From IMG/VR virus record IMGVR_UViG_3300025778_000009: a DNA stretch of 64,000 nucleotides, one strand, 5' to 3'. The notes beneath the pieces were generated by a model. The model worked only from the letters and a program-made list of their open reading frames with translations. It searched no databases and had not been told where the DNA came from. This document shows positions 9,135 to 45,697 of the stretch, in pieces; the first letter of the stretch is position 1, and each line of letters opens with the position of its first letter. The position numbers and the translations under genes were made by a program. The DNA comes from a virus. Lineage: Duplodnaviria; Heunggongvirae; Uroviricota; Caudoviricetes.

Positions 9135-9167
9135 TAAATATTATATAACATTAACCTATGAATAAAA

Positions 9168-11195
9168 ATGACAATTATTGATTTTCCTAATAGCCCAGCA
9201 GATGGTGATATCTATACATTTGGAAATAAATCCTGGCAATGGAATGCGTCAGGAAACTATTGGTTTGCAATATCAAAAACAATAGGCTATTCAGGCTCGA
9301 TAGGGTATACCGGATCTTCTGGTGCATCTGTATACATGGGATATACCGGGTCACAAGGATATTATGGTTCTACCGGGTTTCAAGGCTCTTTAGGCTATGA
9401 TGGTTCTATTGGATATACAGGATCTATAGGTTATACAGGTTCAACTGGATTTCAAGGATCAGCTGGGTTTGTAGGATCTCAAGGAACAAGTGGTGTTATA
9501 GGATATATTGGCTCTTCTGGTTTTACTGGTTCTACCGGGTTTAATGGTTCAGTAGGGTTTATAGGTTCTATAGGTTATTCTGGATCCATAGGTTACAACG
9601 GTTCTTTTGGTTTTACTGGTTCTACCGGGTTTAATGGGTCGGTAGGATTTACTGGATCACTAGGTTATACAGGATCTTTAGGTTACAGCGGTTCTATTGG
9701 GTATACTGGTTCTACAGGGTTTAATGGGTCGATAGGTTTTACAGGATCATTAGGTTTTACAGGATCATTAGGTTATAACGGTTCTACTGGATTTCAAGGG
9801 TCGTCAGGATTTAATGGATCTATAGGTTTTAACGGATCTATTGGATATACAGGTTCAATAGGGTATATAGGATCAGCTGGTTTTCAAGGGTCAACTGGTT
9901 TTCAAGGATCAGTAGGATTTATAGGGTCATTAGGATTTACTGGATCCCAAGGTGTTAACGGTGTAATAGGCTATAATGGATCGGTAGGATTTACAGGGTC
10001 AATTGGATATACAGGGTCTGCTTCTACTACACCGGGATATAATGGTTCTTTTGGGTATACTGGTTCGCAAGGTGCAAACAGTTTATACACACAATCTAAT
10101 ACTGCTCCTCTATATCCTAATCCAGGTGATAGATGGTTTAATACTGATATTGGAATTGAGTTAGTATACACAACAGATGCTAACGGTTCACAGTGGGTAG
10201 AAATTGCATCTAGCGGATTTTTAGGTCAAACTGGTTATAATGGGTCTCAAGGTGTTATCGGGTATACTGGATCACAAGGCATTCAAGGCATTATAGGTTA
10301 TTCTGGTTCAGTAGGATTTAACGGATCTATTGGATTTACAGGTTCAACAGGATTTACGGGCTCTACTGGTTTTAACGGATCGATTGGATTTGTAGGATCT
10401 ATAGGTTTTACAGGTTCTATTGGTACAGGGTATGTAGGTTCTAAAGGGTTTAATGGTTCAATAGGTGCAACAGGTTATGTTGGATCTACAGGATCAACAC
10501 CTACTATAACTTATACTTCACCTACTATGAACGTGTTTACATCTGGTTCTGGAACATATACAACACCAGGAAGTGTTGTGTGGATACGCGTACGAATGAT
10601 AGGCGGTGGCGGTGGCGGTGGTGGTGGTGGCACTAATAATTCAACCACATATAATTCAGTATATGCAGGAGCAAACGGAACTGCAACAACGTTTGGTGGT
10701 ACTTTACTAGTATGTAATCCTGGTCAAGGTGGTTTTGGTGCATATGATCTGCAATATGGTTTTGGAGGTACTGCTTCTATTGGTGATACTTCAAAAGCAT
10801 TTGGTATTGCATTAAACGGTGCATCTGGAGAACCAGGTTGGTCATCATCTCCTTCTACTTATGTTTCTGGTGGTTCTGGTGGTGCATCACCTTTTGGAGG
10901 TGCAGGGGCAAGAGGTTCTGGTGGTACAACCCCGGATGCAGTTTCAATTGCTGCGTCACCAAATACAGGAAGCGGCGGCGGAGGTGGTGGCAGCACTAAC
11001 GCTACTAACGCAAGAGGCGGCGGCGGTGGAGGCGCTGGAGGTTACATAGATGTTATAATAAGAATTCCAGATGCAACGTATTCATATGTAGTAGGTACTG
11101 GCGGAAGAGGTGGAGCTAACGGTACATCACAGTCTGGTTCAGGTAACACAGGTGCTTCTGGTATTATTATGATTGAAGAGCATTATGGTAGCTAA
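9168..11195 (+). CDS. collagen-like fiber protein with a conserved N-terminal adaptor module and a C-terminal Gly-rich module
   Basis: The N-terminus MTIIDFPNSPADGDIYTFGNKSWQWNASGNYW is followed by about 270 residues of G-x-y. It then carries the TAPLYPNPGDRWFNTDIGIELVYT motif, and the C-terminal ~230 aa are rich in poly-Gly, resembling the ORF at 15905. Confidence 0.75.
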   Translation: MTIIDFPNSPADGDIYTFGNKSWQWNASGNYWFAISKTIGYSGSIGYTGSSGASVYMGYTGSQGYYGSTGFQGSLGYDGSIGYTGSIGYTGSTGFQGSAGFVGSQGTSGVIGYIGSSGFTGSTGFNGSVGFIGSIGYSGSIGYNGSFGFTGSTGFNGSVGFTGSLGYTGSLGYSGSIGYTGSTGFNGSIGFTGSLGFTGSLGYNGSTGFQGSSGFNGSIGFNGSIGYTGSIGYIGSAGFQGSTGFQGSVGFIGSLGFTGSQGVNGVIGYNGSVGFTGSIGYTGSASTTPGYNGSFGYTGSQGANSLYTQSNTAPLYPNPGDRWFNTDIGIELVYTTDANGSQWVEIASSGFLGQTGYNGSQGVIGYTGSQGIQGIIGYSGSVGFNGSIGFTGSTGFTGSTGFNGSIGFVGSIGFTGSIGTGYVGSKGFNGSIGATGYVGSTGSTPTITYTSPTMNVFTSGSGTYTTPGSVVWIRVRMIGGGGGGGGGGTNNSTTYNSVYAGANGTATTFGGTLLVCNPGQGGFGAYDLQYGFGGTASIGDTSKAFGIALNGASGEPGWSSSPSTYVSGGSGGASPFGGAGARGSGGTTPDAVSIAASPNTGSGGGGGGSTNATNARGGGGGGAGGYIDVIIRIPDATYSYVVGTGGRGGANGTSQSGSGNTGASGIIMIEEHYGS

Positions 11196-11215
11196 TAAAA
11201 AGGTTTTTATTTTTA

Positions 11216-11830
11216 ATGAGTATTAATTTTCCTGCTAACCCAACACCTAATCAAGTATACACACTAGGTAGTAAAACTTGGACTTGGAATGCAGTATATG
11301 GTTACTGGCAGGCAACATCTACAACCATTGGGTATACCGGTTCACAAGGTAACCAAGGTTACTTAGGTTATACTGGTTCAACTGGGTTTCAAGGATCAGT
11401 TGGATACCAAGGATCAACTGGGTATCAAGGATCTGTAGGTTTTCAAGGATCTGCTGGGTTTCAAGGATCTGCTGGGTTTCAAGGATCTGCTGGGTTTCAA
11501 GGGTCAGCAGGATTTAATGGATCTTTCGGTTATACAGGATCTCTTGGTTATGCTGGATCTATAGGTCTTGCAAATGCTGTAGTTAGTGATACTGCTCCAG
11601 GTACTCCTGCTACTGGCCAATTATGGCTAGACTCTTCTACTGGTCTGCTAAATATATGGTATTCTCCTTCTAATGTGTGGCTTTCGGTAACATCAGTAGG
11701 CATTCAAGGACAGACCGGTTATGCTGGTTCTGTGGGAAATCCTGGACCTGCAGGAGGAGCTACTGGTTATCAAGGGTCAGCTGGCTCTCTAAGTGCAGCT
11801 ATAGGTATATCAATTATTTTTGGAATTTAA
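11216..11830 (+). CDS. short collagen-like fiber protein sharing the N-terminal adaptor module
   Basis: The N-terminus is MSINFPANPTPNQVYTLGSKTWTWNAVYGYW, followed by G-(Y/F)-Q-G-S repeats and the motif DTAPGTPATGQLWLDSSTGLLNIWY. Confidence 0.7.
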   Translation: MSINFPANPTPNQVYTLGSKTWTWNAVYGYWQATSTTIGYTGSQGNQGYLGYTGSTGFQGSVGYQGSTGYQGSVGFQGSAGFQGSAGFQGSAGFQGSAGFNGSFGYTGSLGYAGSIGLANAVVSDTAPGTPATGQLWLDSSTGLLNIWYSPSNVWLSVTSVGIQGQTGYAGSVGNPGPAGGATGYQGSAGSLSAAIGISIIFGI

Positions 11831-11841
11831 GAGAATAGCAA

Positions 11842-12195
11842 ATGGCAAACCCAAATATTTTAGCTTTATCTTCTGTAACTGGTAAATCTAATACTGCTCA
11901 GATAACTACTGGTGGTGTTACTATACTATCAGGATCAGCCGGTACTGTTCTTAAAGTAAATACATTAATGATCGGTAATATGGACGGTGTTACTGCATAT
12001 GGTGTTACTATGAACTACAATAACGGTATCACTAGTGTTACAGTAGCTAACAATATATCTGTTCCTGCACAATCTACTCTTACTATCATAGATAAAACTG
12101 CCACATTTTATATGGAAGAAAATCATACTATAGTTTTATATGCATCGCAAAATAATAAATTAAATAGTATTATTAGTTATGAGATAATGTCCTAA
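11842..12195 (+). CDS. hypothetical virion protein
   Basis: Clean ORF within the fiber operon with a Thr/Ser/Asn-rich composition. Confidence 0.45.
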   Translation: MANPNILALSSVTGKSNTAQITTGGVTILSGSAGTVLKVNTLMIGNMDGVTAYGVTMNYNNGITSVTVANNISVPAQSTLTIIDKTATFYMEENHTIVLYASQNNKLNSIISYEIMS

Positions 12196-13376
12196 TGATT
12201 ATTAACGGCGGTGTAAAAGGTATTTACAATATTCCTTCTACGGCCAGCGCGTCTGGAGTATGGTCAAGATTTGATCAAAATATAAACAAATCTTTAGGAA
12301 GATGGCCTATTGCAGCAGGAAATACAGCATCTCCTGTTATTGCATCTACAATTAGTGTATCCCCTTATGTTAAAGTAATTAATTTTTTTCCAGGCTCTGG
12401 TTTTGGTACAACGTTTTCTAATCCTGGAACATTACCTAGCGGACCGGGTAACGATATACAATTTTCTCCTGATAATAGCAGTATTGTATGGGTAGAGTTG
12501 AGCGGTGGTATAGTAAAAGTATTAAGTTGGGGTAGCACTGGTTTTGGTTCAACATTGTCTAATATAACTGTAGGCAGTACATATTATGCAAAAAGTGCTC
12601 AAATTAGTCCTTCAGGTAACTTTATTGCCATTAGATTTGTAACAAATCTTAGTGTAGGATATGTTAGTATATACAATTTTAATGCAACTACAGGAATAGG
12701 GTCTTTTCGATCATCAGCAACTGTTGGAACAGATAATATTACCTCAAATGGATATGATTTTGTTAAATGGTCACCGTTAGAAGATTCTATTATTACAACT
12801 ACCTATAATAGTCCGTCAAGTACTTTATATGGGTTTACTTTCAACTCTATTACAGGTGTAATAGGAACTGCTGTAGAATTAGAATTTGCAGCTAACTATG
12901 ACTATTATAGAGGTTCTATTCATCCTTCAGGTAAAGCTTTAGCTATAGGTGGTTCTTTTTTAAGCTTACATCTTTTTTCTTATTCATCTTCTACAGCGTC
13001 TGCTGTTTCTGCAGGCTCTGTTGGTACAGGTGGATCTGCTGCAGTAGATGCAAGTTATTCTAAAGACGGGACATTCTTATTAGCTTCAACGCCAAGTAAT
13101 ATATATATTCATTCTACTAATTCAGTTAACGGTGCTTATATATCTACTATAACCTCCTCTGCCACTGGATATACAACAGGTAGAAGTACAATATCATATA
13201 GTTCTTCTGACATCTTATATGATTTATCAAACACTACATCATATGGAATAAGAGGTTACCCAGTAACTAGAACAGGCTCTGTACCTACAGGTATAGGTAC
13301 ATCTTATTCCGCTTCTTTTACTTCAGGATCTTCTGTAACTACATATTCAATAGTAACAAACAATTATAATTATTAA
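12195..13376 (+). CDS. hypothetical virion protein, possibly with a beta-propeller-like repeat architecture
   Basis: Blade-like segments recur, such as ISPSGNFIAIRF, IHPSGKALAIGG and YSKDGTFLLAST. The start overlaps the stop of the previous gene. Confidence 0.4.
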   Translation: MIINGGVKGIYNIPSTASASGVWSRFDQNINKSLGRWPIAAGNTASPVIASTISVSPYVKVINFFPGSGFGTTFSNPGTLPSGPGNDIQFSPDNSSIVWVELSGGIVKVLSWGSTGFGSTLSNITVGSTYYAKSAQISPSGNFIAIRFVTNLSVGYVSIYNFNATTGIGSFRSSATVGTDNITSNGYDFVKWSPLEDSIITTTYNSPSSTLYGFTFNSITGVIGTAVELEFAANYDYYRGSIHPSGKALAIGGSFLSLHLFSYSSSTASAVSAGSVGTGGSAAVDASYSKDGTFLLASTPSNIYIHSTNSVNGAYISTITSSATGYTTGRSTISYSSSDILYDLSNTTSYGIRGYPVTRTGSVPTGIGTSYSASFTSGSSVTTYSIVTNNYNY

Positions 13377-13389
13377 AAGGAGTTTTATT

Positions 13390-13752
13390 ATGGATTTTTT
13401 TACTATTACAGATGCGGATAAAAAACTAACAATTGCAAGAAATATTGTTATGAGAGAACAAGAAATACATGCATACGAATTAAATGTAATAAATTATCAA
13501 GTAATTTTAGATTCTCTTCCAAAAGATGAATGGCCAGCAGTTATTAGTGCATATAAAGAAACACCTATTCAAAACGTTCCTTCAGATTATCATGATCTAG
13601 TAAATGACTATCAATTTAGAGAGCGTGTTAGACATCTTATAGCAACAGAAAAGCATGAAATGAATAAATCAGTGAAAGTATATCAAGCTTTGTTAACACA
13701 GATACCAGCAGAAGAATTGCCAGATCTATTAAAAGCAGCACAACAAGTTTAA
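13390..13752 (+). CDS. hypothetical protein
   Basis: 120-aa ORF with an RBS-like AAAGGAG upstream and a non-repetitive helical composition. Confidence 0.4.
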   Translation: MDFFTITDADKKLTIARNIVMREQEIHAYELNVINYQVILDSLPKDEWPAVISAYKETPIQNVPSDYHDLVNDYQFRERVRHLIATEKHEMNKSVKVYQALLTQIPAEELPDLLKAAQQV

Positions 13753-13758
13753 TAAAAA

Positions 13759-15903
13759 ATGTCACTAAGTTTTCCTAGTAGCCCTAGTATCGGTAATTTA
13801 TATTTTTCTGGTGGTAACACCTGGAAATGGACTGGTACCACATGGGTTATAGTAGGTAGTTCTGGCTTTCAAGGATCTATAGGGTTTCAAGGTTCTTCTG
13901 GTGCTATCGTAGCACCAGGCAGCACATCACAAGTATTATATAATGATGGTGTTTATGCTAATGCATCAGCTGGGTTAACATTTAGTAAAACTAGTAACAA
14001 TTTATTTGTTGGTAATACTTTAATTGCAAATTCTATATCTGCTAACGGATATATTGGTTCAGCAGGCCAACTTTTATATTCTAATTCTTCCGGTGGAATA
14101 TATTGGGCAAATGCTGCAGGCGGGTTTGCAAATGGTCAATCTATTGCAGTAAACGTTTTGACAGTTAATAGTTCATTAACTGCAAACGGTATAACAATTC
14201 ACAATGCTAATTTAGTCGCAAATAGTATTACTATTCATAATGCTAACGTAATATTTTCTACAACATTACCTTTAACATCACCTGCTGGTATTATAGCAAA
14301 CGGCTCTATTGGTACAGCATTTCAAACTCTATTATCTAACGGCACGGGGTTATATTGGGATAGTAATACCTATGTCTCTAACTCTTATTTTTCTACTAGT
14401 GGTGTAGGAGTATCTAATTCTTATGCATCAGCTACATATGTTACCAATAATACAATTAATTCCGCCAACATAATTTTAGGTGTTGCAAATGTTACTTTTA
14501 ATAGTAATGTAGTACATAATGCTAACATAACAATTAATGCTGTTTCTGCATATACGACATTTGCATCAAAAAATTATGTGTTTAATGCAAATACTATGGC
14601 TATTTTAACAAATAATTTTAGCACATATGCAACAACATTAAGTTCATCACAATATGTTAATATCGGTACTGGAACAACCTCAGTTTATGCTGGTAATGGT
14701 TATGGCTTTACTTCAGAATTTTTTGTTAAATTTAATACTCTTTCAACAACTTCAACATTGACACCTATGTGGTTTGATAATACAGGTGGTGGAGGTCGTC
14801 CAAATCAATATGCATTATTTGCTAATACTACTACGTTATCAGCTTCTCAAATTGGATACGGTACAATATTTACATTAACAGGATTAACAATTGCAACTGG
14901 TGTGTGGTATCATATGGCCTGGATAGGCTTTAATAATAACATGTATTTTGCAATTAATGGTACTGTTTATGATTTAAATACAGTTCCATCTAATGGAAAT
15001 TTTGCAACCGGGTATCCGTACAATTGGGGTGGTATATATAATCTTTCAAATGCTACCTATTCAAACATAAGAGTTGTTGCAAACAATAATATTTACTCCA
15101 TACATGGGTTTATTCCTCCAAACGCACCATTAAATGCACCCCCAGGCACATCCTTGTTAAATTTTCAATCTAGTACTTTTGCTGATTCTATTACAGGTAC
15201 TTTATTATCTACTACTGGAACACCCACTTTATCAACAACGACTATAAACTTATATCCCACAGCTAATAACAATTTAGTAAGTGGTACTATTAATAATGGA
15301 AATGCTATATTTCAATCTGTAACAACAAACTATATTCAAACACCTACATTGTATGTGTATGGAGCTAATGGTGCTGCTTCTACTTTATATGTTTCTAATG
15401 GTGTTTTATTAATAGGAAATACATCTGTTAACTCAGTTCATAATAGTAAATCATTATCCATTTATGATTCAATTGCAGTAAGCAATCTTACTATTAATTC
15501 TACTTCTATTGCTATATCAAATAGTACAATAACTAATGCTAAAATTTCTCCAGTTCAGACACTTACTGTTGCCTTGTCTGATGAATCAACTCAAATAACA
15601 CAAGGTATTAAAATTGTAACAAGAGCTCCTTATGCCATGACATTAGTACCTCCCTATGCAAGAATATCTTTATCAATAACAGGTACAACAACAACATCCG
15701 TAGATATTACATCTGGCGGATCTTCTATATTTTCGGCAACCCCATCATTAGCATCTGGTGTAATTTCTAATACAGGACCTGCATCTATGTCAGCAACAGG
15801 ATTAGCCACTATTGCAGATGATACACAATTACAATTTAGTGTGTCTGCTAACGGCGCTGGTGCTAGCGGGTTAAAAGCAACACTATATTATGTAAAGATC
15901 TAA
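13759..15903 (+). CDS. fiber protein with the N-terminal adaptor module, a short collagen-like tract and a LamG-like motif
   Basis: The N-terminus is MSLSFPSSPSIGNLYFSGGNTWKWTGTTW, followed by GFQGSIGFQGSSG. A LamG-like motif VWYHMAWIGFNNNMYFAINGTVY occurs later. The protein is Thr/Asn/Ser-rich. Confidence 0.65.
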   Translation: MSLSFPSSPSIGNLYFSGGNTWKWTGTTWVIVGSSGFQGSIGFQGSSGAIVAPGSTSQVLYNDGVYANASAGLTFSKTSNNLFVGNTLIANSISANGYIGSAGQLLYSNSSGGIYWANAAGGFANGQSIAVNVLTVNSSLTANGITIHNANLVANSITIHNANVIFSTTLPLTSPAGIIANGSIGTAFQTLLSNGTGLYWDSNTYVSNSYFSTSGVGVSNSYASATYVTNNTINSANIILGVANVTFNSNVVHNANITINAVSAYTTFASKNYVFNANTMAILTNNFSTYATTLSSSQYVNIGTGTTSVYAGNGYGFTSEFFVKFNTLSTTSTLTPMWFDNTGGGGRPNQYALFANTTTLSASQIGYGTIFTLTGLTIATGVWYHMAWIGFNNNMYFAINGTVYDLNTVPSNGNFATGYPYNWGGIYNLSNATYSNIRVVANNNIYSIHGFIPPNAPLNAPPGTSLLNFQSSTFADSITGTLLSTTGTPTLSTTTINLYPTANNNLVSGTINNGNAIFQSVTTNYIQTPTLYVYGANGAASTLYVSNGVLLIGNTSVNSVHNSKSLSIYDSIAVSNLTINSTSIAISNSTITNAKISPVQTLTVALSDESTQITQGIKIVTRAPYAMTLVPPYARISLSITGTTTTSVDITSGGSSIFSATPSLASGVISNTGPASMSATGLATIADDTQLQFSVSANGAGASGLKATLYYVKI

Positions 15904-15904
15904 T

Positions 15905-16843
15905 ATGAGTACCTATCTTTTAAATGAATATATAGGTGCTGGTTATAGTGATGGTCTAATAATTCCACCTGCAGCACCGTCACAAATTATTTTTACTACA
16001 GTAGGTGCATATTCATGGGCAGTACCACTAGGAGTAACTAGAATATGTGTTGTTGCAGTTGGGGGAGGTGGTGGAGGTGCAAATATAGCCAACGCTGGAG
16101 GAGGTGGCGGAGGTGGTTTAGTATATCTGAACAATTACACAGTAAAAGCTGGTGATATTGTTTCAGGAATCGTAGGAGATGGTGGTACAGCAAATACAGT
16201 AGGTGTTTCTACTACAGTACTTGTTAATGGATCTAATATAATTACTGCTCAGGGTGGAAGTGGAGGATCTGGTACTGTTGGTGGATCGGGAGGAAGTGGT
16301 ACTGGTATCTCAGGTATAGTTGCAAATTCAGGAGGAGCAGGAGGTAATTTTACTGGTTCTGGATCACCTTACGGTGCAGGTGGAGGTGGTGCTGCAGGTT
16401 ATTCAGGTGCTGGAGGACGTGGTGGATTTTCATCAGGAAACTCTGGAGGTATAGCAGCTATTGCAGGTGCAGGAGGTGGTGGCGGTGGCGGGGGAGCTGC
16501 TTACAGTACAAATAATACCGGTAGTGGTAGTGGTGCTGGAGGTGGTGGTGTTGGACTATTAGGTTCTGGTACAAATGGAACAGCTGGTACTCAAGGTTTT
16601 AGAAATACTCCTGTAAATCCTACTGGAGGCGGTGGTGGTTCAGGAGGAGCAGCTGGTACAAATGGCGGAGTTGTTAGTGCATCTGCTCCAGTTGGAGGAG
16701 CATACGGTGGTGGAGGCGGTGGTACACAGGGTGCTAACGGAAACCCTGCAGTTAACGGTAAAGGCGGGCAAGGTGCTGTAAGAATAATTTACGGTTATTC
16801 AACAGACACAAGAACATTTCCTTCTAATGCCGGGGATTTATAA
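15905..16843 (+). CDS. glycine-rich protein, homologous to the C-terminal module of the 9168..11195 protein
   Basis: YSWAVPLGVTRICVVAVGGGGGG parallels YTTPGSVVWIRVRMIGGGGGGGG in ORF 9168. Repeated GGxGG tracts run throughout. Confidence 0.55.
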   Translation: MSTYLLNEYIGAGYSDGLIIPPAAPSQIIFTTVGAYSWAVPLGVTRICVVAVGGGGGGANIANAGGGGGGGLVYLNNYTVKAGDIVSGIVGDGGTANTVGVSTTVLVNGSNIITAQGGSGGSGTVGGSGGSGTGISGIVANSGGAGGNFTGSGSPYGAGGGGAAGYSGAGGRGGFSSGNSGGIAAIAGAGGGGGGGGAAYSTNNTGSGSGAGGGGVGLLGSGTNGTAGTQGFRNTPVNPTGGGGGSGGAAGTNGGVVSASAPVGGAYGGGGGGTQGANGNPAVNGKGGQGAVRIIYGYSTDTRTFPSNAGDL

Positions 16844-16866
16844 TAAATTATCTTACCTTTGAATCT

Positions 16867-16874
16867 TATAAATA
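16867..16874 (+). promoter_or_regulatory. T4-type late promoter motif TATAAATA
   Basis: Exact TATAAATA lies about 35 nt upstream of the ATG at 16910. A gp55 homolog is encoded in this window. Confidence 0.4.
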
Positions 16875-16909
16875 CTTAAAAATACATTTACTTTTAGGAA
16901 AAATCTAAA

Positions 16910-18142
16910 ATGACCACGAAGATTTTCGTTTCCCAGATTGATAAAACTAATCCTGACGGGTATACAGGTTCTACCGGTGCCTTCTTAATCCTTGGTTCAA
17001 CTGGACCTTATTGGGCTAGTGGTGACGCTGCTGCACCTGTAGGATTTTTAGGTTCTATAGGTTTTCAAGGATCTTCTGGATTTCAAGGATCTTTTGGATA
17101 TACAGGGTATCAAGGATCACTAGGTTTTGTTGGTTATACTGGCTCAATTGGGTTTCAAGGTTCATCTGGATTTTTAGGATCATCAGGATTTCAAGGTTCT
17201 TTAGGTGATACTGGATATAAAGGATCTTTTGGTGATGTTGGTTTTAGAGGATCACAAGGTGTAATAGGTGATCAAGGTCCAGTAGGCTATCAAGGATCTA
17301 CTTCTTTTGCTGGTTCAGTAGGATTTCAAGGTTCTGTCGGCCCTCCTGGACCAATTAATATTGGATTTCAAGGGTCATTAGGTGACACAGGTTACCAAGG
17401 ATCAGCTGGTTTCCTAGGTTCTTCTGGATTTCAAGGTTCAGTAGGATTTTTAGGATCTTCAGGATTCTTAGGTTCAGCAGGATTTGCAGGTAGTGTAGGT
17501 TACGGTCTAACAGGCTATACTGGGTCAGTAGGTGCATCAGGAGGGCTAGGGCCTTTTGGTTATCAAGGATCTACTGGTTTTACTGGATCTGTACCCAATG
17601 TGAGTTTAACTGGTCTTGTTGATTTTCCTGCTTCATATACTTCTCCAAACGCATTTTTAAGAGTAAATGCTGCTGCTTCTGGTATTGTATTTGATACAAA
17701 TACTTACATTACTAATTCAATGTCTACTGGCATCAGTATGAATTATAATACATTGTTTAATCCAGTTCTTCTTGGATATGGTGAAGTAGTAAATCCAATT
17801 GGTAATGCAACAGTAACCGGTTTTGGTTTTACACCAACCGCTAATGGAAATATTGTTACTGTAACATTAACTGATTCTGTTGTTGGTGTTACAATAGGTA
17901 CTACTGGAATGGTGTCTGGTAGATTATATACCGCAACAATGTTTATTAAACAAGACGGTACAGGTAACAGAACAATAGATTGGTCTGCTTTAAATATAAA
18001 ATGGCCAACTGGTGAAAGTACGCCTCCTACAGGACCTGTTCTTTCTATACAACCAAATTATACAGATGTTATAACATTATATACTTTAAATGCAGGAACT
18101 ACATGGTATGGTATTTTAGCTATTAAAGGTTTTAACGGTTAA
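16910..18142 (+). CDS. collagen-like fiber protein with a non-collagen C-terminal domain
   Basis: About 200 aa of G-F-Q-G-S / G-Y-T-G-S repeats are followed by a Thr/Val-rich globular region. Confidence 0.7.
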   Translation: MTTKIFVSQIDKTNPDGYTGSTGAFLILGSTGPYWASGDAAAPVGFLGSIGFQGSSGFQGSFGYTGYQGSLGFVGYTGSIGFQGSSGFLGSSGFQGSLGDTGYKGSFGDVGFRGSQGVIGDQGPVGYQGSTSFAGSVGFQGSVGPPGPINIGFQGSLGDTGYQGSAGFLGSSGFQGSVGFLGSSGFLGSAGFAGSVGYGLTGYTGSVGASGGLGPFGYQGSTGFTGSVPNVSLTGLVDFPASYTSPNAFLRVNAAASGIVFDTNTYITNSMSTGISMNYNTLFNPVLLGYGEVVNPIGNATVTGFGFTPTANGNIVTVTLTDSVVGVTIGTTGMVSGRLYTATMFIKQDGTGNRTIDWSALNIKWPTGESTPPTGPVLSIQPNYTDVITLYTLNAGTTWYGILAIKGFNG

Positions 18143-18144
18143 AA

Positions 18145-19680
18145 ATGCCTGTATCAAGTACGCACTTTTCATTCTCAAGAACTTATATTCAAAAAGAAAA
18201 TGTTATAACAGTTTCGTTGCCAGATTATGCTGTACTTTTTTACTATGATAAAATAAAAAATTGGAATTCTACATATTCAGGCAATCTTAACATAGATTAC
18301 TATATAAGTCTTTCTACAAAAACTAATAATTTTAATTCTAAAACGCCTATAGATTGGCCATTAGTATATTGTGTTAATGATTACTCTGTTGATTCTGCAG
18401 TAGGTATATACTCCTCGGCTAATTTAGATGTTAGCAGTTTTACTAACAGCTCAACATTTTTAGACATAGGTGGTGCTCATAATCCTACTGTAGCAGGATT
18501 TCAAACTCAACCAACATTAGGGTTTGCATTTAATTCCGGCGATACTGCTTCTACATTAGTTACTGATGTGTATTATAATTATACTACGCCTCATAATGGT
18601 CATTATCATGAAGTGTCTGGACTTAATATAGCAAACGCATTATTAAATATTAAAAATTTATCTGCAAATGGTACATTATTACCTCAAAATATTGCTAATT
18701 TAGAAACGATAGGTATTCCACAAACTACTGTTAATATGTTATTAAAAGATCCAACTATAAAAAATGGAACTAAAATAATAACATTCTTACCTAAAAATGT
18801 AATTGTTTTTGGTAACAATTTACCTTCAGATTCTTATACACGAACAGATCCACTTTATTCAGGCTCACAGTCTGTGAATAGTAATCCAGTAAGAGGAAGT
18901 GATATATTAAGTAATACGTTTTATCTTTCTTGCTTTAATGATGCATCTGGATCTTATTTTAATTCTACTACTAATTTTAGTGTAACTTCTAATAACTCAC
19001 CATTTCACGATCATACTCCTTCTAGTGCTGGTGGTGTAAATACACCACAACGTAAATCTAATAAATCAGGTCAAACTGCTTCACTTTTTGGAGCAAGTGG
19101 AAGACACAATCATTCAGTAACTTATAATGTTAATGCATATCTAAAAGGTAAAAAGTTAAAAGCCTATTTTACTAAAAATGATCAAACTACTATTGCTAAC
19201 GGAGTTATTATAGGTTACTGTCCAAGTGCTGCATTAGGTTATACTGGTAAATCTTACTCTACTACTTTACCGCCGCATTGGCATGTATGTGATGGAAATA
19301 ATGGAACACCAGATCTTAGAGGTTTCTACATTGGAGCAAATTTCAATGACTCAGACAATAATGTTAACATTACAATATTAGAAAATAAAATGAAAATAAA
19401 CAATATTACGGTAGCTGCAAACGGTGCACATTCACATGGTGTTGTAGGAGCTGTAAATGCAGTTGGGCCTGCAGGTACTGCTAAAAATATTGGAAGTCAT
19501 TTATTAGAACCGGCAACTAACCACTCTCACTCTATTATAGCATCGGCAACATATCCAACATTTCCTACTGCTGCTACACCGCAAAAAACTAATATTAATG
19601 GAATAACATTTACTAATTTTAACTATAAGCCTGCTACATTTACAATGGCTTTCATAATGTATAACGAAAATATACCATAA
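18145..19680 (+). CDS. putative receptor-binding (short) tail fiber protein with a tail-collar-like motif and His boxes
   Basis: LPPHWHVCDGNNGTPDLRGFYIGAN resembles the phage tail collar domain (CDG...PDLRG). The HxH pairs GAHSHGVVGA and TNHSHSI recall the His boxes of T4 gp12 and gp37. Its position upstream of gp13 is equivalent to T4 gp12. Confidence 0.5.
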   Translation: MPVSSTHFSFSRTYIQKENVITVSLPDYAVLFYYDKIKNWNSTYSGNLNIDYYISLSTKTNNFNSKTPIDWPLVYCVNDYSVDSAVGIYSSANLDVSSFTNSSTFLDIGGAHNPTVAGFQTQPTLGFAFNSGDTASTLVTDVYYNYTTPHNGHYHEVSGLNIANALLNIKNLSANGTLLPQNIANLETIGIPQTTVNMLLKDPTIKNGTKIITFLPKNVIVFGNNLPSDSYTRTDPLYSGSQSVNSNPVRGSDILSNTFYLSCFNDASGSYFNSTTNFSVTSNNSPFHDHTPSSAGGVNTPQRKSNKSGQTASLFGASGRHNHSVTYNVNAYLKGKKLKAYFTKNDQTTIANGVIIGYCPSAALGYTGKSYSTTLPPHWHVCDGNNGTPDLRGFYIGANFNDSDNNVNITILENKMKINNITVAANGAHSHGVVGAVNAVGPAGTAKNIGSHLLEPATNHSHSIIASATYPTFPTAATPQKTNINGITFTNFNYKPATFTMAFIMYNENIP

Positions 19681-19690
19681 GGAGTTTAAG

Positions 19691-20305
19691 ATGATTACTG
19701 AAGAAATTATTAAATCTTGCTTTCCGCATGCAAAAGCTTCAATAGTAAAAGCGCTTGTAGAAAATGCAGAAGAATTATCAACCCATTATGAAATTAATAA
19801 TGAATTAAGATGGGCACATTTTCTTGCTCAAACCGGTCATGAATCTGGCGGGTTTACTGTTACAGAAGAAAATTTAAATTATAAAGCTGAAGGTCTAGAA
19901 AAAATATTTCCAAAGTACTTTAAAGATGTAGATGCAGAAGATTATGCTCATCAACCAGTTAAAATTGCAAATCGAGTTTATGCTAATAGAATGGGAAACG
20001 GAGATGAAGAATCAGGTGATGGCTACAAATTTAGAGGTCATGGTCTTATTCAATTAACTGGTAGAGATAATTACACCCATATGGCAAATGATTTAGATGT
20101 AAATCTAGAAGATTTAATTACACATTTAGCAACAGTTGATGGTGCTGTAGAGTCGGCTGCTTGGTTTTGGCATAAAAATGGCATTAATAAATTAGCTGAT
20201 GCAGACGATGTTACTGCTGTTACAAAAAAAGTAAATGGAGGAACTATCGGATTAGCTGAAAGACAAGAAAATACAGATAAATTAAAAGATATTTTAGGTG
20301 CGTAA
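19691..20305 (+). CDS. GH19 (chitinase-family) lysozyme-like peptidoglycan hydrolase
   Basis: HFLAQTGHESGGF and YKFRGHGLIQLTGRDNY match the two glycoside hydrolase family 19 signatures. Confidence 0.7.
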   Translation: MITEEIIKSCFPHAKASIVKALVENAEELSTHYEINNELRWAHFLAQTGHESGGFTVTEENLNYKAEGLEKIFPKYFKDVDAEDYAHQPVKIANRVYANRMGNGDEESGDGYKFRGHGLIQLTGRDNYTHMANDLDVNLEDLITHLATVDGAVESAAWFWHKNGINKLADADDVTAVTKKVNGGTIGLAERQENTDKLKDILGA

Positions 20306-20508
20306 TGATTGCCAGTACCAATATGATTGTTCAAAGAATAGGAGATTCTATAATCTCTCAAGCTAGAATACTAGGTTATAGCACTCACCTAATTATAAAC
20401 AAACAAAATAATGTAATTACGCCTATTTCTATTCTAAGACAGACTAGTAGCGGGCTTTTAAATGCATTACCTTCTTTACCAACTAATCCTCCTACATATA
20501 TTTCTTAA
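20305..20508 (+). CDS. small hypothetical protein
   Basis: 67-aa ORF overlapping the previous stop. Confidence 0.3.
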   Translation: MIASTNMIVQRIGDSIISQARILGYSTHLIINKQNNVITPISILRQTSSGLLNALPSLPTNPPTYIS

Positions 20509-20532
20509 TAAATATTATAAAAGGGTATAATA

Positions 20533-21279
20533 ATGTCATTTACTAAAATTACAAACAGAGCAGATTTTGCGTCTTATTGTTTAAGACGTTTAGGAGCACC
20601 TGTTATTGACATTAATGTTGATCCAGATCAGGTAAATGATCGTATAGATGATGCACTTAAATTTTGGTATGATTATCATTTTGAAGGTGCAGAAAAAACA
20701 TTCTACAAATATGTAATTTCTCAAACTGATATTGATAACAAATATATCCCAGTACCGGAAAATATTATAGGTGTTGTAAATATATTTGATCTTGGAGATT
20801 ATATTTCTACTAATAATATTTTTAATATTCGTTATCAAATTGCTTTAAATGATTTGTATACTTTGACATATCAATCAATGGTTCCATATTATATGGCATT
20901 CCAGCAACTTCAATTGCTAGAACAAATACTAGTTGGAAAACAACCAATCAGATATAATAGACATTTAGGTAAATTATATATTGATACAGATTGGACAAAG
21001 TTAACTGTTGGAAGTTATATAGTAGCAGAAGCATACATGGTAGTTGATCCGGACGTTTATACATCTGCATGGGATGATAGATGGTTGCAAAAATATGCAA
21101 CTGCGCTTATTAAACAGCAATGGGGTGCTAATTTAATTAAATTTACAGGCATGCAACTTCCAGGCGGTGTGCAATTTAACGGTGAAAAAATATATAATGA
21201 TGCTTCAGCTGAAATTGAAAAGATGGAACAAGAAGTAATTATTGGTTACAGTTTACCAGTTACTGATATGATTGGATAA
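20533..21279 (+). CDS. gp13: neck protein (T4 gp13-like), assigned by synteny
   Basis: This ORF is the first of the conserved gp13-gp14-gp15-gp16-gp17-gp18 order. Its length is similar to T4 gp13. Confidence 0.55.
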   Translation: MSFTKITNRADFASYCLRRLGAPVIDINVDPDQVNDRIDDALKFWYDYHFEGAEKTFYKYVISQTDIDNKYIPVPENIIGVVNIFDLGDYISTNNIFNIRYQIALNDLYTLTYQSMVPYYMAFQQLQLLEQILVGKQPIRYNRHLGKLYIDTDWTKLTVGSYIVAEAYMVVDPDVYTSAWDDRWLQKYATALIKQQWGANLIKFTGMQLPGGVQFNGEKIYNDASAEIEKMEQEVIIGYSLPVTDMIG

Positions 21280-21282
21280 TAA

Positions 21283-22005
21283 ATGCCATCCAATTTTTAT
21301 ATTAATAATTTTAATTCTAAAAATGAACAAAACCTTATTCAAGATTTAGTTGTTGAATCAATTAAATTTTACGGTATTGATCTTTATTACCTTCCTCGAG
21401 AAATTATTAATTTAAGTACTGAATTTAGAGAACAGCAAACATCAAGATACAATCAAGCTGTAACAACAGTAATGTATATTAAATCAATTGATGGCTTTGA
21501 TGGTGATGGTGAATTTCTATCTTCATTTGGTGTAGAAGTAAGAGAAGAAATTACATTTTCTGTAGCTAATTTTACTTTTGATAAAGAAGTTGGCCAGTTA
21601 ACTAGAAGAGATCGTCCTTTAGAATCTGATCTTATTTGGTTTCCATTAAATAAAGCATTATTTCAAATTAAATATGTAAATGTAAGACCTGTATTTTATC
21701 AATTTGGTGCACTACAGTTTTATGATGTTACTTGTGAATTATTTGAATATAGCAATGAAATATTTAATACTGGTGTTCCTGCTATTGATGCAGTATATAA
21801 TGCTTTTGCTACAACTACTGAGCCTTATCATTTACAATCAGAAGACAATACTGTATTAATGACTGAAGAAGGTTTTGATTTAATTGAAGAAGAATATGGT
21901 ATTGAAAATGAAACAAATCAACAAAATTCTACATTTGATCAAATAGCTGTAAATTTCTTAGATTTTACACAACAAGATCCATTTAGTGAAACAAAGAGAA
22001 TCTAA
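21283..22005 (+). CDS. gp14: neck protein (T4 gp14-like), assigned by synteny
   Basis: Lies between the gp13-like and gp15-like ORFs, and is acidic like T4 gp14. Confidence 0.55.
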   Translation: MPSNFYINNFNSKNEQNLIQDLVVESIKFYGIDLYYLPREIINLSTEFREQQTSRYNQAVTTVMYIKSIDGFDGDGEFLSSFGVEVREEITFSVANFTFDKEVGQLTRRDRPLESDLIWFPLNKALFQIKYVNVRPVFYQFGALQFYDVTCELFEYSNEIFNTGVPAIDAVYNAFATTTEPYHLQSEDNTVLMTEEGFDLIEEEYGIENETNQQNSTFDQIAVNFLDFTQQDPFSETKRI

Positions 22006-22895
22006 TGATTGGCGGCACTCCATTTTATAATTCTTTGTTTAAAAAGTACGTTGCCATATTTGGCACGCTTTTTAACAATCTTTATATTGATAGAACTGAT
22101 GATGCAGGCAACTTAATTCAAGAGATAAAGGTACCTATTGCATACGGTCCGCGCGAAAAATTCTTAGCACGTCTTCAAGATAATCCTACTGGTTCTGCTC
22201 AAGTTTCTATTACTCTACCTAGAATGGCATTTGAAATTGAAAGAATTCAATATGCTCCTAATAGAAAATTGCAGACTTTAAATAAAATCGCTTCAAAGAA
22301 AAACATTAATGGTCATAACGTATATAAGAAAGTATACTCTTCTGTTCCATATGATATAGGATTTAAATTACAAATCCTTACTAAAACTATGGAAGACGGG
22401 CTTAAAATTATTGAACAAATTCTTCCTTATTTTACTCCTGAATGGACCGTACAGGCTCATCTTTTAGGTGAAGATTTTGATATGGTAACAGATATCCCTA
22501 CTATATTAGATTCTGTATCAATTGATGATCAATATGAAGATAATTTTTTACAAAGAAGAGTATTAACATTTATTTTAAACTTTACTATGAAAGCTTATTT
22601 TTATGGGCCAATTACTGAAAGCAAAATTATTAAACTTACAGATACTAGAATATATGCTGATTTAACTGCAAATAGTGGATTTATAGAAACAACTATTCGC
22701 CCAGGATTAACAGCAAACGGTATGCCTACATCTAATCTAGCTTTATCTGTAGATATTTCTCAAATAGATGAAAATACGCATTACGGGTTTATTATTAATA
22801 CTACACAAACATATGCCGGTAATGCTAATACCACTTATAATGTAACTTCAAATACATATTTTAACGTTAATACAGGCGAGTTTGTAGGTGGCTAA
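22005..22895 (+). CDS. gp15: tail sheath stabiliser / tail completion protein
   Basis: KIIEQILPYFTPEW matches T4 gp15 QIVEQILPYFQPHF. The N-terminus FYNSLFKKYVAIFGTLFNN matches T4 YNSSFRRYATLMGDLFSN. Confidence 0.8.
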   Translation: MIGGTPFYNSLFKKYVAIFGTLFNNLYIDRTDDAGNLIQEIKVPIAYGPREKFLARLQDNPTGSAQVSITLPRMAFEIERIQYAPNRKLQTLNKIASKKNINGHNVYKKVYSSVPYDIGFKLQILTKTMEDGLKIIEQILPYFTPEWTVQAHLLGEDFDMVTDIPTILDSVSIDDQYEDNFLQRRVLTFILNFTMKAYFYGPITESKIIKLTDTRIYADLTANSGFIETTIRPGLTANGMPTSNLALSVDISQIDENTHYGFIINTTQTYAGNANTTYNVTSNTYFNVNTGEFVGG

Positions 22896-41961: not shown

Positions 41962-41963
41962 TA

Positions 41964-42143
41964 TGGATAAGCTATTAATTTTTTTAGGTGCTTTGGTTAT
42001 CATTATCATCGGACCGTTTCTTTCAATCTGGGCATTGGATACTCTTTTCCCAGTGCTTAATATCCCCTATACACTTGAAACATGGTTTGCTGCTGCAATT
42101 TTGTCAGCTGGGGTATATACTAGACCTAATAAGAAAGGTTGAT
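41964..42143 (+). CDS. small membrane protein (59 aa)
   Basis: MDKLLIFLGALVIIIIGPFLSIWALDTLFPVLNIPYTLETWFAAAILSAGVYTRPNKKG: two hydrophobic segments. It falls below the ORF-track length cutoff. Confidence 0.3.
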
Positions 42144-42324
42144 TATGTTTAACTTACAGGCTTGCTATTCTATCAATGATATACTATTCTCAGTATCATT
42201 GTTTACAATGATTTTAACAGTCATTGTTACATTTACGTATTTGATGGTTACGTTGATTAAAGATGCAGTGTTTGAAGTACAAGACATGAAATCTAAGAAA
42301 GATAGAGCCATAAATACTCAATGA
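42139..42324 (+). CDS. small membrane protein
   Basis: 61-aa hydrophobic ORF. Confidence 0.3.
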   Translation: MIMFNLQACYSINDILFSVSLFTMILTVIVTFTYLMVTLIKDAVFEVQDMKSKKDRAINTQ

Positions 42325-45139: not shown

Positions 45140-45697
45140 ATGGCAGATCCCAAGAAGAATAAGCATTATATTGATAATAAAAGATTTTATACTGAGATTT
45201 TAAAGCATAAAGCCGACGTAGAAAAAGCAAAAGCAGATGGTTTAGATGAACCAAGAATACCACCTTATATAGGTGAGTGCCTCTTTAAAATTGCAACAAG
45301 ACTATCATTAAAACCAAATTTTGTTAGTTATACTTTCAGAGAAGAAATGATATCTGATGGATTAGAAAATTGTATAAATTATTTTCACAATTTTAATCCA
45401 GAAAAATCTGACAATCCATTTGCCTATTTCACACAGATTATTTGGTTTGCTTTTATTAGACGTATTGATAAAGAAAAAAAACATCTTTATATTAAACAAA
45501 AGACATTAGAAAATTTTTATTTTGAAGGTATGTTGGCTGAACAAGGTATTGGTGAAGACGACAGGACCGTAACTGTTAATTTAGATAACGAGTATATGAA
45601 GGGCTTAGTTGAATCTTATGATAAGAAGCAGCTAGAAAAACAAAAGAAAAATAAAGCCCGTAAGTTAGGAGTGGAGAAATTCTATGAATCAGAATAG
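45140..45697 (+). CDS. gp55: late-transcription sigma factor
   Basis: Exactly 185 aa, as in T4 gp55. HYIDNKRFYTEIL matches T4 NYVNNKELLQAII. NPFAYFTQIIWFAFIRRIDKEKK matches T4 [23 protein letters not shown]. Confidence 0.85.
   Translation: MADPKKNKHYIDNKRFYTEILKHKADVEKAKADGLDEPRIPPYIGECLFKIATRLSLKPNFVSYTFREEMISDGLENCINYFHNFNPEKSDNPFAYFTQIIWFAFIRRIDKEKKHLYIKQKTLENFYFEGMLAEQGIGEDDRTVTVNLDNEYMKGLVESYDKKQLEKQKKNKARKLGVEKFYESE

What the first reader, a model, noticed from the sequence alone, without database searches (positions are those of the whole stretch)
19691..20305. GH19 chitinase-family lysin encoded in the fiber-neck junction (the position of fibritin/wac in T4)
Both GH19 signatures are clear. 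In T4 this locus encodes wac and the lysozymes lie elsewhere. A GH19 enzyme in a virion structural operon could be a virion-associated cell-wall hydrolase used at entry, or the endolysin. GH19 lysins are frequent in phages of Gram-negative hosts but unusual in T4-like structural modules.
Basis: partly seen in the sequence, partly recalled or inferred. Interest (0 to 1): 0.5.

Follow-up and report, generated by a model that had tools for sequence, protein, structure and literature searches.

The report
GH19 cell-wall lysin beside phage neck genes
An uncultured freshwater T4-like phage encodes an ordinary-looking GH19 peptidoglycan-cutting enzyme, most likely its lysis enzyme, at the end of a tail-fibre operon; in most sister phages the next gene encodes the tail-spike tip protein, so a role at cell entry is not excluded.

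Summary
The ORF at 19691-20305 (+) is real. It encodes a 204-aa single-domain GH19 lysin: PHROG_181 endolysin E=1.4e-74, AlphaFold pLDDT 95, TM 0.84-0.86 to solved GH19 endolysins. Every active-site residue of the biochemically proven muramidase PaGH19Lys is conserved.

It lies between tail-fibre genes and gp13/gp14/gp15, the slot wac occupies in T4. No wac homologue is present, and cultured relatives use this slot for other genes.

The placement is inherited, not accidental. All 15 sampled lineages of an uncultured T4-like clade keep the gene just upstream of gp13. Its divergence tracks that of the neck and terminase proteins.

The gene has no signal peptide, TM segment or extra domain, and no late promoter of its own. 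No holin, spanin or second lysin was found in the 64 kb window.

Best reading: the phage's soluble, holin-dependent endolysin (about 0.6).

Live rival: a virion- or spike-associated lysin (about 0.3). In 10 of 15 lineages a PAAR spike-tip gene starts 0-5 nt after the GH19 stop. A 44%-identical XacN1 homologue was reported in virions. The same fold is a VgrG-carried T6SS effector domain. In this window, however, that slot holds an unrelated 67-aa ORF.

Verdict: a new member of a known kind, of modest interest.

The parts
19691..20305 (+). GH19-family muramidase gene (204 aa). Catalytic E51 is the codon at 19841-19843 and E60 the codon at 19868-19870.
   Evidence: ORF. PHROG_181 endolysin E=1.4e-74. 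PDB 9eoi 1.4e-37. AF2 pLDDT 95 and TM 0.85 to 9eoi. E51, E60 and T123 are invariant.
19680..19684 (+). AGGAG ribosome-binding site, overlapping the stop of the upstream fibre gene. There is only a 10-nt gap and no promoter-like site before GH19.
   Evidence: Sequence. The same tight junction occurs in all sister loci.
20305..20508 (+). Conserved 67-aa ORF (s67) of unknown function. Its start overlaps the GH19 stop (TAATG). It occupies the slot that holds a PAAR gene in sister lineages.
   Evidence: 17 homologues at 65-100% identity. No PAAR similarity: hhalign probability 0.3%, HMM score 2.5 bits, within the shuffled range. AF2 pLDDT 61, all-beta.
18145..19680 (+). 511-aa fibre-like protein directly upstream, with six HxH motifs and a tail-collar-like PPHWHVCDGNNGTPDLRG motif. 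It is conserved next to GH19 in sister lineages.
   Evidence: Sequence. PDB 6ov6 E=4e-4 on the collar motif. Homologues lie upstream of GH19 in L007, L009, L010, L012, L101, L103 and L104.
16910..18142 (+). Collagen-repeat tail-fibre gene, the first gene of the inferred late transcription unit that ends with GH19 and s67.
   Evidence: Pfam Collagen 3.4e-23 and PHROG tail fibre.
16867..16874 (+). TATAAATA, a T4-type late-promoter-like site. It is the nearest one upstream of GH19.
   Evidence: All six exact sites are on the + strand; five lie 19-53 nt upstream of a gene start and one lies 215 nt upstream.
20507..20514 (+). AATAAATA late-promoter-like site 25 nt upstream of gp13. It separates the GH19/s67 unit from the neck genes.
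   Evidence: The same arrangement occurs in sister loci.
20533..21279 (+). gp13 neck protein (head-tail adaptor).
   Evidence: PHROG_211 5.2e-40. PF26809 Phage_T4_gp13.
21283..22005 (+). gp14 neck protein.
   Evidence: PF11649 5.8e-33.
22005..22895 (+). gp15 tail sheath stabiliser.
   Evidence: PF16724 1.3e-68.
45140..45697 (+). gp55-type late sigma factor. Its presence supports reading (N)ATAAATA sites as late promoters.
   Evidence: PHROG_234 5.5e-58.
41963..42324 (+). Two adjacent small membrane-protein ORFs (59 and 61 aa) upstream of gp3. They are among the few small TM-protein ORFs in the window (others at 39842-40027 and 48990-49163) and are weak holin candidates. No family was assigned.
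   Evidence: Hydropathy scan. No PHROG or Pfam hit.

Best explanation
The gene encodes the phage's endolysin, a soluble 23-kDa GH19-type N-acetylmuramidase. It is transcribed late, as the next-to-last gene of a gp55-dependent tail-fibre operon: late promoter at 16867, then collagen fibre, HxH fibre, GH19 and s67. The enzyme accumulates in the cytoplasm because it has no signal or SAR sequence. It reaches the murein only when a holin encoded elsewhere opens the inner membrane. There it hydrolyses the MurNAc-beta-1,4-GlcNAc bond, with E51 and E60 as the catalytic pair, and the cell lyses.

Shown here: family, fold, conserved active site, absence of export signals and extra domains, operon position, and vertical inheritance at this locus.

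Inferred: muramidase specificity (by 40% identity to PaGH19Lys), late timing (from promoter-like motifs plus gp55), holin dependence, and the role in lysis.

The position next to gp13 is read as a lineage-specific insertion into the variable fibre/neck junction of T4-like phages, which scatter their lysis genes. It is not read as a structural role.
For: Family and fold: PHROG_181 endolysin 1.4e-74. Full-length alignment (residues 2-193) to PaGH19Lys 9eoi, and hits to endolysins KTN6 gp46 and SPN1S. AF2 pLDDT 95 with TM 0.84-0.86 to these structures, against about 0.6 to true chitinases.

Active site: PaGH19Lys residues H50, E51, E60, Y103, Q127, T129, N188 and R197 (PMC12329726) correspond to H50, E51, E60, Y97, Q121, T123, N182 and R191 here. 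All are invariant in 20 relatives. PaGH19Lys was shown to be a muramidase, and its E60Q variant lost observable activity at 1 nM.

No hydrophobic segment was found, and the whole length is the catalytic fold.

Context in distant relatives: of 82 loci classified (78 IMG/VR loci at 65% identity or less, plus the window and three metagenome loci), 36 have the GH19 flanked by small TM proteins, the pattern of holin/spanin cassettes. The metagenome scan gave the same picture. RSP15 has the GH19 next to an Rz-like spanin among structural genes.

No other lysin, holin or spanin family was found among the window ORFs scanned with PHROG or Pfam; a few small ORFs were not scanned. The closest cultured relative, Melnitz, has just one free-standing lysin, of a different fold and at a different locus (PMC9004378). 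This shows non-orthologous replacement and free placement of the lysin in this group. Another T4-like group and Cr30 carry the GH19 beside the DNA polymerase gene.
Against: No holin or spanin is adjacent, and none was identified in the window. The gene is embedded in a late virion-gene block, and this position is conserved in all 15 sampled lineages. In 10 of these a PAAR spike-tip gene is translationally coupled to it. XacN1 ORF272, 43.7% identical over its full length, was reported in purified virions. Only 64 kb of a roughly 229 kb genome was examined, so another endolysin may exist elsewhere.
Confidence: 0.6

Rival explanations
1. The enzyme is a virion-associated (spike- or baseplate-associated) lysin, possibly with a dual role. 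GH19 would be incorporated into the tail tip through a non-covalent contact with the central spike or PAAR complex, or with s67 in this lineage. It would open the murein locally during tail contraction. This would be the job of the T4 gp5 lysozyme domain, supplied here in trans, much as T6SS spikes carry GH19-like effectors. It might also serve as the lysis enzyme, as phi6 P5 and PRD1 P15 do (own knowledge).
For: The position inside the late fibre/neck block is conserved in 15 of 15 lineages, and GH19 divergence tracks gp13, gp14, gp15 and TerL. In 10 of 15 lineages a PAAR gene (Pfam 34-51 bits against a gathering score of 27 for the three scanned; clade PAAR HMM E=1e-7 to 1e-56 for all ten) starts 0-5 nt after the GH19 stop. 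PAAR was found nowhere else in about 170 GH19 loci. The XacN1 homologue was found packed in virions by LC-MS/MS (PMC5852040; identity confirmed). TseP-C (8xcl; E=5.6e-27, TM 0.79) is a lysozyme domain that binds VgrG2 and is secreted by a T6SS. COG3179 domains occur in A. baumannii T6SS effectors. The gene is co-transcribed with fibre genes and has no promoter of its own.
Against: This window has no PAAR gene next to GH19. The 67-aa ORF in that slot shows no PAAR similarity. Three lineages have neither. The protein has no extra domain or extension that could anchor it. Known virion lysins are usually domains of large structural proteins (own knowledge). Detection of an abundant late soluble enzyme in a virion preparation can be carry-over. 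Gene adjacency in a densely packed late region is weak evidence of interaction. Whether this phage's gp5 has a lysozyme domain could not be checked.
Confidence: 0.3
2. The enzyme is a true chitinase, or an auxiliary glycanase acting on chitin or another host or environmental polysaccharide rather than on murein.
For: Sources name relatives 'putative chitinase' or COG3179. There is a weak Pfam PF00182 'Chitinase class I' hit. A dual function was discussed for flavophage GH19s (PMC8776804).
Against: There is no signal peptide. Structural similarity to chitinases is much lower (TM about 0.6, 15-18% identity) than to muramidase endolysins (TM 0.85, 31-40% identity). The active site is identical to that of a proven muramidase. 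The PROSITE chitinase signatures are absent.
Confidence: 0.04
3. The gene is a decaying or non-functional remnant carried passively in the operon.
For: None specific. It has no promoter of its own.
Against: The ORF is intact at 203-207 aa in more than 100 clusters (two listed are 186 and 198 aa), with 55 invariant columns that include all catalytic residues. The exact protein is seen on 21 contigs from several samples.
Confidence: 0.01

Closest known systems
PaGH19Lys (PA0629 / Lys of the P. aeruginosa R/F-pyocin cluster; PDB 9EOI) and phage GH19 endolysins SPN1S (4OK7) and KTN6 gp46 (8P8E)
   Same: Same length class (about 205-220 aa), single globular alpha-helical GH19 domain, 31-40% identity, TM 0.84-0.86, identical catalytic and substrate-cleft residues, and no signal peptide.
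   Different: Those genes sit in holin/endolysin/spanin cassettes. This one sits at the 3' end of a tail-fibre operon just upstream of gp13 in a T4-like genome, with no membrane-protein genes nearby.
Xanthomonas jumbo phage XacN1 ORF272 'chitinase'
   Same: 43.7% identity over 99% of the length, a free single-domain protein, encoded among structural genes (two genes downstream of the major capsid protein gene).
   Different: XacN1 is a jumbo myovirus, not T4-like. Its protein was reported in virions by MS, whereas no proteome exists for this clade.
T4 gp5 lysozyme domain plus gp5.4 (PAAR-like spike tip)
   Same: A muramidase gene and a spike-tip gene lie close together in a T4-like genome. This holds for the sister lineages. 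T4 gene order is from own knowledge.
   Different: T4's enzyme is a GH24 domain fused inside the hub protein gp5. Here the enzyme is a separate GH19 protein. It lies at the neck junction rather than in the baseplate cluster, and this window lacks the PAAR neighbour.
T6SS effector TseP C-domain (8XCL) and COG3179-containing A. baumannii T6SS effectors
   Same: Same GH19-like lysozyme fold (E=5.6e-27, TM 0.79). TseP-C is delivered by a contractile spike through direct VgrG binding.
   Different: Those are domains of large multi-domain effectors with cognate immunity proteins in bacteria. Here the enzyme is a stand-alone phage protein, and no carrier interaction has been shown.
T4 fibritin (wac)
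   Same: Only the map position between the short-fibre-like gene and gp13.
   Different: There is no sequence or fold relation. The GH19 is a globular enzyme, not a coiled-coil fibre. No wac homologue was detected in the window.

Membership tests
GH19 endolysin subfamily (phage muramidases; PHROG_181 / COG3179) | Significant match to the family profile over the whole domain | tested here: met
   PHROG_181 E=1.4e-74, residues 1-203. phmmer to 9eoi 1.4e-37, residues 2-193.
GH19 endolysin subfamily (phage muramidases; PHROG_181 / COG3179) | Bilobal all-alpha GH19/lysozyme-like fold | tested here: met
   AF2 pLDDT 95, pTM 0.88. Foldseek TM 0.85, 0.86 and 0.84 to 9eoi, 8p8e and 4ok7.
GH19 endolysin subfamily (phage muramidases; PHROG_181 / COG3179) | Catalytic Glu pair and cleft residues (PaGH19Lys H50, E51, E60, Y103, Q127, T129, N188, R197) | tested here: met
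   H50, E51, E60, Y97, Q121, T123, N182 and R191 are aligned and invariant in 20 relatives. Residue list from PMC12329726.
GH19 endolysin subfamily (phage muramidases; PHROG_181 / COG3179) | Hydrolysis of the MurNAc-GlcNAc bond of peptidoglycan | not testable with these tools
   Inferred from 40% identity to PaGH19Lys, whose products were analysed.
Pfam PF00182 / PROSITE 'chitinase family 19' (classical plant/bacterial chitinases) | Score above the Pfam gathering threshold, and PROSITE signatures PS00773 and PS00774 | tested here: not met
   PF00182 scores 22.4 bits against a cut-off of 25.5. Neither PROSITE pattern, recalled from memory, matches by regex. TM to chitinases is only about 0.6.
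Canonical lysis cassette endolysin (holin-endolysin-spanin) | Adjacent genes for small membrane proteins (holin, spanin) | tested here: not met
   No TM-containing ORF lies within the fibre/neck block. This feature is not required of T4-type phages, whose lysis genes are dispersed (own knowledge).
Canonical lysis cassette endolysin (holin-endolysin-spanin) | Absence of export signal (holin-dependent soluble type) | tested here: met
   The hydropathy scan finds no hydrophobic segment. The N-terminus is part of the helical fold.
Virion-associated peptidoglycan hydrolase | Physical presence in the virion | not testable with these tools
   There is no cultured member of the clade. The only evidence is a 44%-identical homologue in XacN1 virions.
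Virion-associated peptidoglycan hydrolase | Lytic domain fused to, or carrying, a structural or anchoring module | tested here: not met
   The protein is 204 aa, and the whole length equals the catalytic fold of free endolysins.
Virion-associated peptidoglycan hydrolase | Encoded within and co-transcribed with virion structural genes | tested here: met
   The gene lies between fibre genes and gp13. The nearest late-promoter-like site is at 16867. The position is conserved in 15 lineages.
Spike-cargo lysin (T4 gp5/gp5.4-like or T6SS VgrG/PAAR-linked effector) | Genetic linkage to a PAAR or VgrG-type spike gene | tested here: not met
   In this window the downstream ORF is not PAAR. Linkage is met in 10 of 15 sister lineages.
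T4 fibritin (wac) | Homology to fibritin, or a coiled-coil fibre with foldon | tested here: not met
   The protein is a globular enzyme. No fibritin family hit was found for any ORF in 8-22 kb.

The most novel reading that the evidence does not exclude
In this uncultured T4-like clade the free GH19 muramidase is a detachable cargo of the tail spike. It would be encoded with, and translationally coupled to, the PAAR tip protein, which is replaced by a 67-aa beta-protein in this window's lineage. It would ride on the spike as T6SS effectors ride on VgrG/PAAR and replace the fused lysozyme domain of T4 gp5. That would be a phage example of the T6SS-style 'spike plus cargo enzyme' arrangement, possibly doubling as the endolysin.
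Probability: 0.2. Interest if true: 0.6.

Novelty: new member of a known kind. Interest (0 to 1): 0.3.

Why it matters
As an endolysin, the gene adds a well-conserved, cold-freshwater GH19 muramidase lineage to a family already mined for enzybiotics. It also shows that T4-like phages swap lysin type and location freely: GH24 'e' in T4, a SagA-like lysin in Melnitz, GH19 here and in Cr30. The more interesting point is the recurrent GH19-PAAR gene pair. If it reflects a physical association, it would link phage entry enzymes to the cargo-loading logic of T6SS spikes. It would also explain how T4-like phages that lack a fused hub lysozyme breach the murein. That idea is directly testable with complex prediction, pull-downs or virion proteomics.

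Tried and rejected
(1) Is the 67-aa ORF after GH19 a degenerate PAAR? I saw loose motif resemblance by eye. BLASTP gave E=2 and Pfam gave nothing. hhalign of the two families gave probability 0.3%. A clade-specific PAAR HMM scored 2.5 bits, within the range of 500 shuffles. The AF2 model was poor (pLDDT 61) and Foldseek gave nothing below E=0.5. Rejected as unsupported.

(2) PROSITE GH19 signatures: no match.

(3) NCBIfam: no family for GH19, s67 or gp13.

(4) DNA-level identification of the phage: megablast of 11 kb found nothing in 50,697 phage records. TerL is only about 54% identical to Pelagibacter, Methylophilales and Synechococcus myophages.

(5) Finding gp5 of the same genome, to see whether it keeps a lysozyme domain: the look-up upstream of the window returned only 22-25 kb contigs that end in more fibre genes and a glycosyltransferase. 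Locus proteins cannot be used to walk further.

(6) Locating PAAR in cultured Kyanoviridae by tblastn: only 11 unrelated phages hit.

(7) Holin search: no PHROG or Pfam lysis family was found among the window ORFs scanned. A few small TM ORFs remain unassigned, including 41963-42324.

(8) The 'big neighbour' context of some distant GH19s proved heterogeneous. In L014 the neighbour is a T4-type DNA polymerase; others are unknown.

(9) sigma-70 promoter and terminator scans around the gene were at background level.

Full report
**Observation.**
The ORF at 19691-20305 (+) is real. It has an ATG start and a TAA stop, encodes 204 aa, and is preceded by an AGGAG ribosome-binding site that overlaps the stop codon of the upstream gene. 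Its GC content (32.8%) matches that of the window (34.4%).

It matches PHROG_181 'endolysin' at E=1.4e-74 over residues 1-203. The Pfam PF00182 hit (22.4 bits) is below the gathering score of 25.5. Neither PROSITE GH19 pattern, as I recall them, matches. What is clear is the endolysin-type GH19 motif set.

Against solved structures, the best sequence hits are free GH19 endolysins:
- PaGH19Lys 9eoi, 1.4e-37, aligned over residues 2-193
- KTN6 gp46 8p8e
- a soil metagenome endolysin, 9ms6
- SPN1S 4ok7

An AlphaFold model built on 20 relatives has pLDDT 95. It superposes on those endolysins with TM 0.84-0.86, against about 0.6 for genuine chitinases.

The active-site residues listed for PaGH19Lys are H50, E51, E60, Y103, Q127, T129, N188 and R197 (PMC12329726). 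They correspond to H50, E51, E60, Y97, Q121, T123, N182 and R191 here, and all are invariant across 20 relatives. PaGH19Lys was shown to cleave the MurNAc-GlcNAc bond, and its E60Q variant showed no observable activity at 1 nM. The protein has no hydrophobic segment and no domain beyond the catalytic fold.

**Genomic setting.**
The window comes from an uncultured T4-like myovirus. TerL is about 54% identical to that of Pelagibacter, Methylophilales and Synechococcus myophages, and there is no DNA-level match to any deposited phage. The exact protein occurs on 21 metagenomic contigs from freshwater bog samples, the longest 229 kb.

- Upstream lie eight fibre-like genes. They include collagen-repeat proteins, among them a 2207-aa giant; a Laminin_G_3 protein; a Gly-rich protein; and a 511-aa protein with six HxH motifs and a tail-collar-like motif.
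- Downstream lie a 67-aa ORF, then gp13, gp14, gp15, TerS, TerL, sheath, tube, portal, protease and MCP.

This is the map position of wac in T4 (own knowledge of T4 gene order). No fibritin homologue is present. In HTVC008M and Melnitz the same junction carries oxygenase genes or fibres, so it is a variable slot.

**Transcription.**
(N)ATAAATA motifs are rarer than chance overall: 6 exact TATAAATA against 15.7 expected. Of the 16 ATAAATA cores, 14 are on the + strand, and 11 of those lie 19-53 nt upstream of the next gene start, mostly structural genes. A gp55-type late sigma factor is encoded at 45140-45697.

The nearest such site upstream of GH19 is at 16867, before the collagen fibre gene. 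The next is at 20507, before gp13. There is none in the 10-nt gap before GH19. The same layout holds in ten sister loci. I infer late expression as part of a fibre operon that ends with GH19 and the 67-aa ORF. sigma-70-like promoter and terminator scans were at background.

**Conservation of the position.**
The large protein search returned over 100 clusters at 57-100% identity, nearly all 203-207 aa. I sampled these and the IMG/VR and JGI scans. All 15 distinct lineages at 57% identity or more carry the gene immediately upstream of the gp13-gp15 neck module.

In a neighbour-joining tree they form one clade, separate from GH19s in other contexts (no bootstrap was run). GH19 divergence tracks the neighbouring core proteins. 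Against L007, identity is 75% for GH19, 77% for gp14 and 71% for gp15. Against L099, it is 61% for GH19 and 56% for TerL. The gene has therefore been inherited vertically at this locus.

More distant relatives (55% identity or less) are mostly flanked by small membrane proteins, the look of holin/spanin cassettes: 36 of 82 loci classified (similar). Others sit beside a T4-type DNA polymerase, as in Caulobacter phage Cr30. In Ralstonia phage RSP15 the gene lies next to an Rz-like spanin among structural genes.

**The PAAR neighbour.**
In 10 of the 15 lineages the gene that follows GH19 encodes a PAAR-motif protein, the spike-tip protein of contractile injection systems and the counterpart of T4 gp5.4. 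It often shares a TAATG stop/start overlap with GH19. Support comes from Pfam scores of 34-51 bits against a gathering score of 27 for the three PAAR proteins scanned, and from a clade HMM at E=1e-7 to 1e-56 for all ten. PAAR was found nowhere else in about 170 GH19 loci.

Three lineages go straight from GH19 to gp13. Two lineages, this window and L007, have a conserved 67-68 aa ORF in the same slot with the same overlap. That ORF is a real gene, with 17 homologues. It shows no PAAR similarity by BLASTP, Pfam, hhalign or HMM. Its predicted structure is too uncertain to use.

**Other lysis genes.**
PHROG and Pfam scans of nearly all remaining window ORFs found no second lysin, holin or spanin. 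A few small membrane-protein ORFs remain unassigned. Two adjacent ones at 41963-42324 are weak holin candidates. Only 64 kb of about 229 kb could be examined. An attempt to reach the baseplate and gp5 region upstream failed.

**Interpretation.**
The most likely function is that of the phage's soluble, holin-dependent endolysin (about 0.6).
- The protein is indistinguishable in architecture and active site from characterised endolysins.
- It has nothing that could anchor it in a virion.
- The family's wider context is lysis cassettes.
- T4-like phages scatter their lysis genes and swap lysin types. Melnitz has a single SagA-like lysin elsewhere (PMC9004378).

The rival, a virion-associated and possibly dual-function lysin (about 0.3), is not idle.
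- The locus is conserved inside the late virion block.
- The gene is tightly coupled to the spike-tip gene in most sister lineages.
- XacN1 ORF272 (43.7% identical, full length) was reported packed in virions (PMC5852040).

Against the rival: this window lacks the PAAR neighbour, adjacency in a packed late region is weak evidence, and soluble late proteins contaminate virion preparations. A true chitinase role is unlikely, at about 0.04.

**Novelty.**
This is a new member of a known kind, a GH19 endolysin-type muramidase, in an uncultured T4-like clade where its placement next to gp13 is the rule. The conserved GH19-PAAR gene pair is the one feature worth following up.

Noticed in passing
L008:8617-8892, L009:8615-8962, L010:8630-8992, L012:7216-7584, L098:7624-7986, L100:7615-7953; also L011, L101, L103, L104: In 10 of 15 sister lineages a PAAR-motif (spike-tip) gene starts 0-5 nt after the GH19 stop, often as a TAATG overlap. 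These PAAR proteins carry a 30-50 aa C-terminal extension; a shared 'APLES' motif was noted by eye in four or five of the six aligned sequences.
   Followed up: partly
window 20305-20508 (+): A conserved 67-aa ORF (17 homologues, predicted all-beta, Pro-rich C-terminus LPSLPTNPPTYI) occupies the PAAR slot and overlaps the GH19 stop. It has no detectable family or fold.
   Followed up: yes
window 1694, 9134, 16867, 20507, 24865, 27609, 29260, 33442, 34562, 42310, 43243 (+): (N)ATAAATA T4-type late-promoter-like motifs sit 19-53 nt upstream of genes on the + strand, mostly structural, although the motif is under-represented overall. A gp55 late sigma factor is encoded at 45140-45697.
   Followed up: partly
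window 51568-58981 (+): A 7-deazaguanine/queuosine-type biosynthesis cluster: QueE 51568-52458, QueD 52712-53233, GTP cyclohydrolases 53946-54677 and 57267-58235, and QueC 58235-58981. An HNH endonuclease (54977-55330) lies among these genes. The cluster suggests DNA hypermodification.
   Followed up: no
window 1747-8370 (+) and 8370-19680: A 2207-aa fibre protein with 16 collagen-repeat stretches is followed by seven more fibre-like genes (collagen, Laminin_G_3, Gly_rich_2). This is an unusually large and varied fibre arsenal. A 927-aa multi-domain glycosyltransferase lies on the minus strand just before the window start (L096).
   Followed up: partly
window 18145-19680 (+): A 511-aa protein has six HxH motifs (HYH, HDH, HNH, HWH, HSH, HSH) and a tail-collar-like PPHWHVCDGNNGTPDLRG motif. 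This is reminiscent of the metal-binding fibre tips of T4 gp12 and gp37 (own knowledge). It is conserved next to GH19 in many sister lineages.
   Followed up: partly
window 36584-37780 (-): A 398-aa protein with three N-terminal TM segments and an SPFH/Band-7 domain (Pfam 1.9e-06; PHROG_200 'lipoprotein') sits in a minus-strand block next to a nucleotide-sugar epimerase (37804-38589).
   Followed up: no
window 41963-42142 and 42139-42324 (+): Two overlapping small membrane-protein ORFs (59 and 61 aa) lie just upstream of gp3, with no family hit. They are possible holin-type proteins.
   Followed up: partly
window 50879-51358 (+): A peptide deformylase gene (PHROG_2890, 2.8e-40), an auxiliary gene also annotated in Microcystis phage Mel-JY01 next to its GH19.
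   Followed up: no
L014:2187-4658 and similar loci (L017, L019, L020, L107, L114); Cr30 L094: A different set of GH19 genes (about 55% identical) sits beside a T4-type DNA polymerase gene, as in Caulobacter phage Cr30. T4-like phages have therefore placed this lysin at two or more unrelated loci.
   Followed up: partly
L141 (Ga0007822_1000574): One contig carries two GH19 genes (208 and 266 aa) separated by two small TM-protein genes.
   Followed up: no
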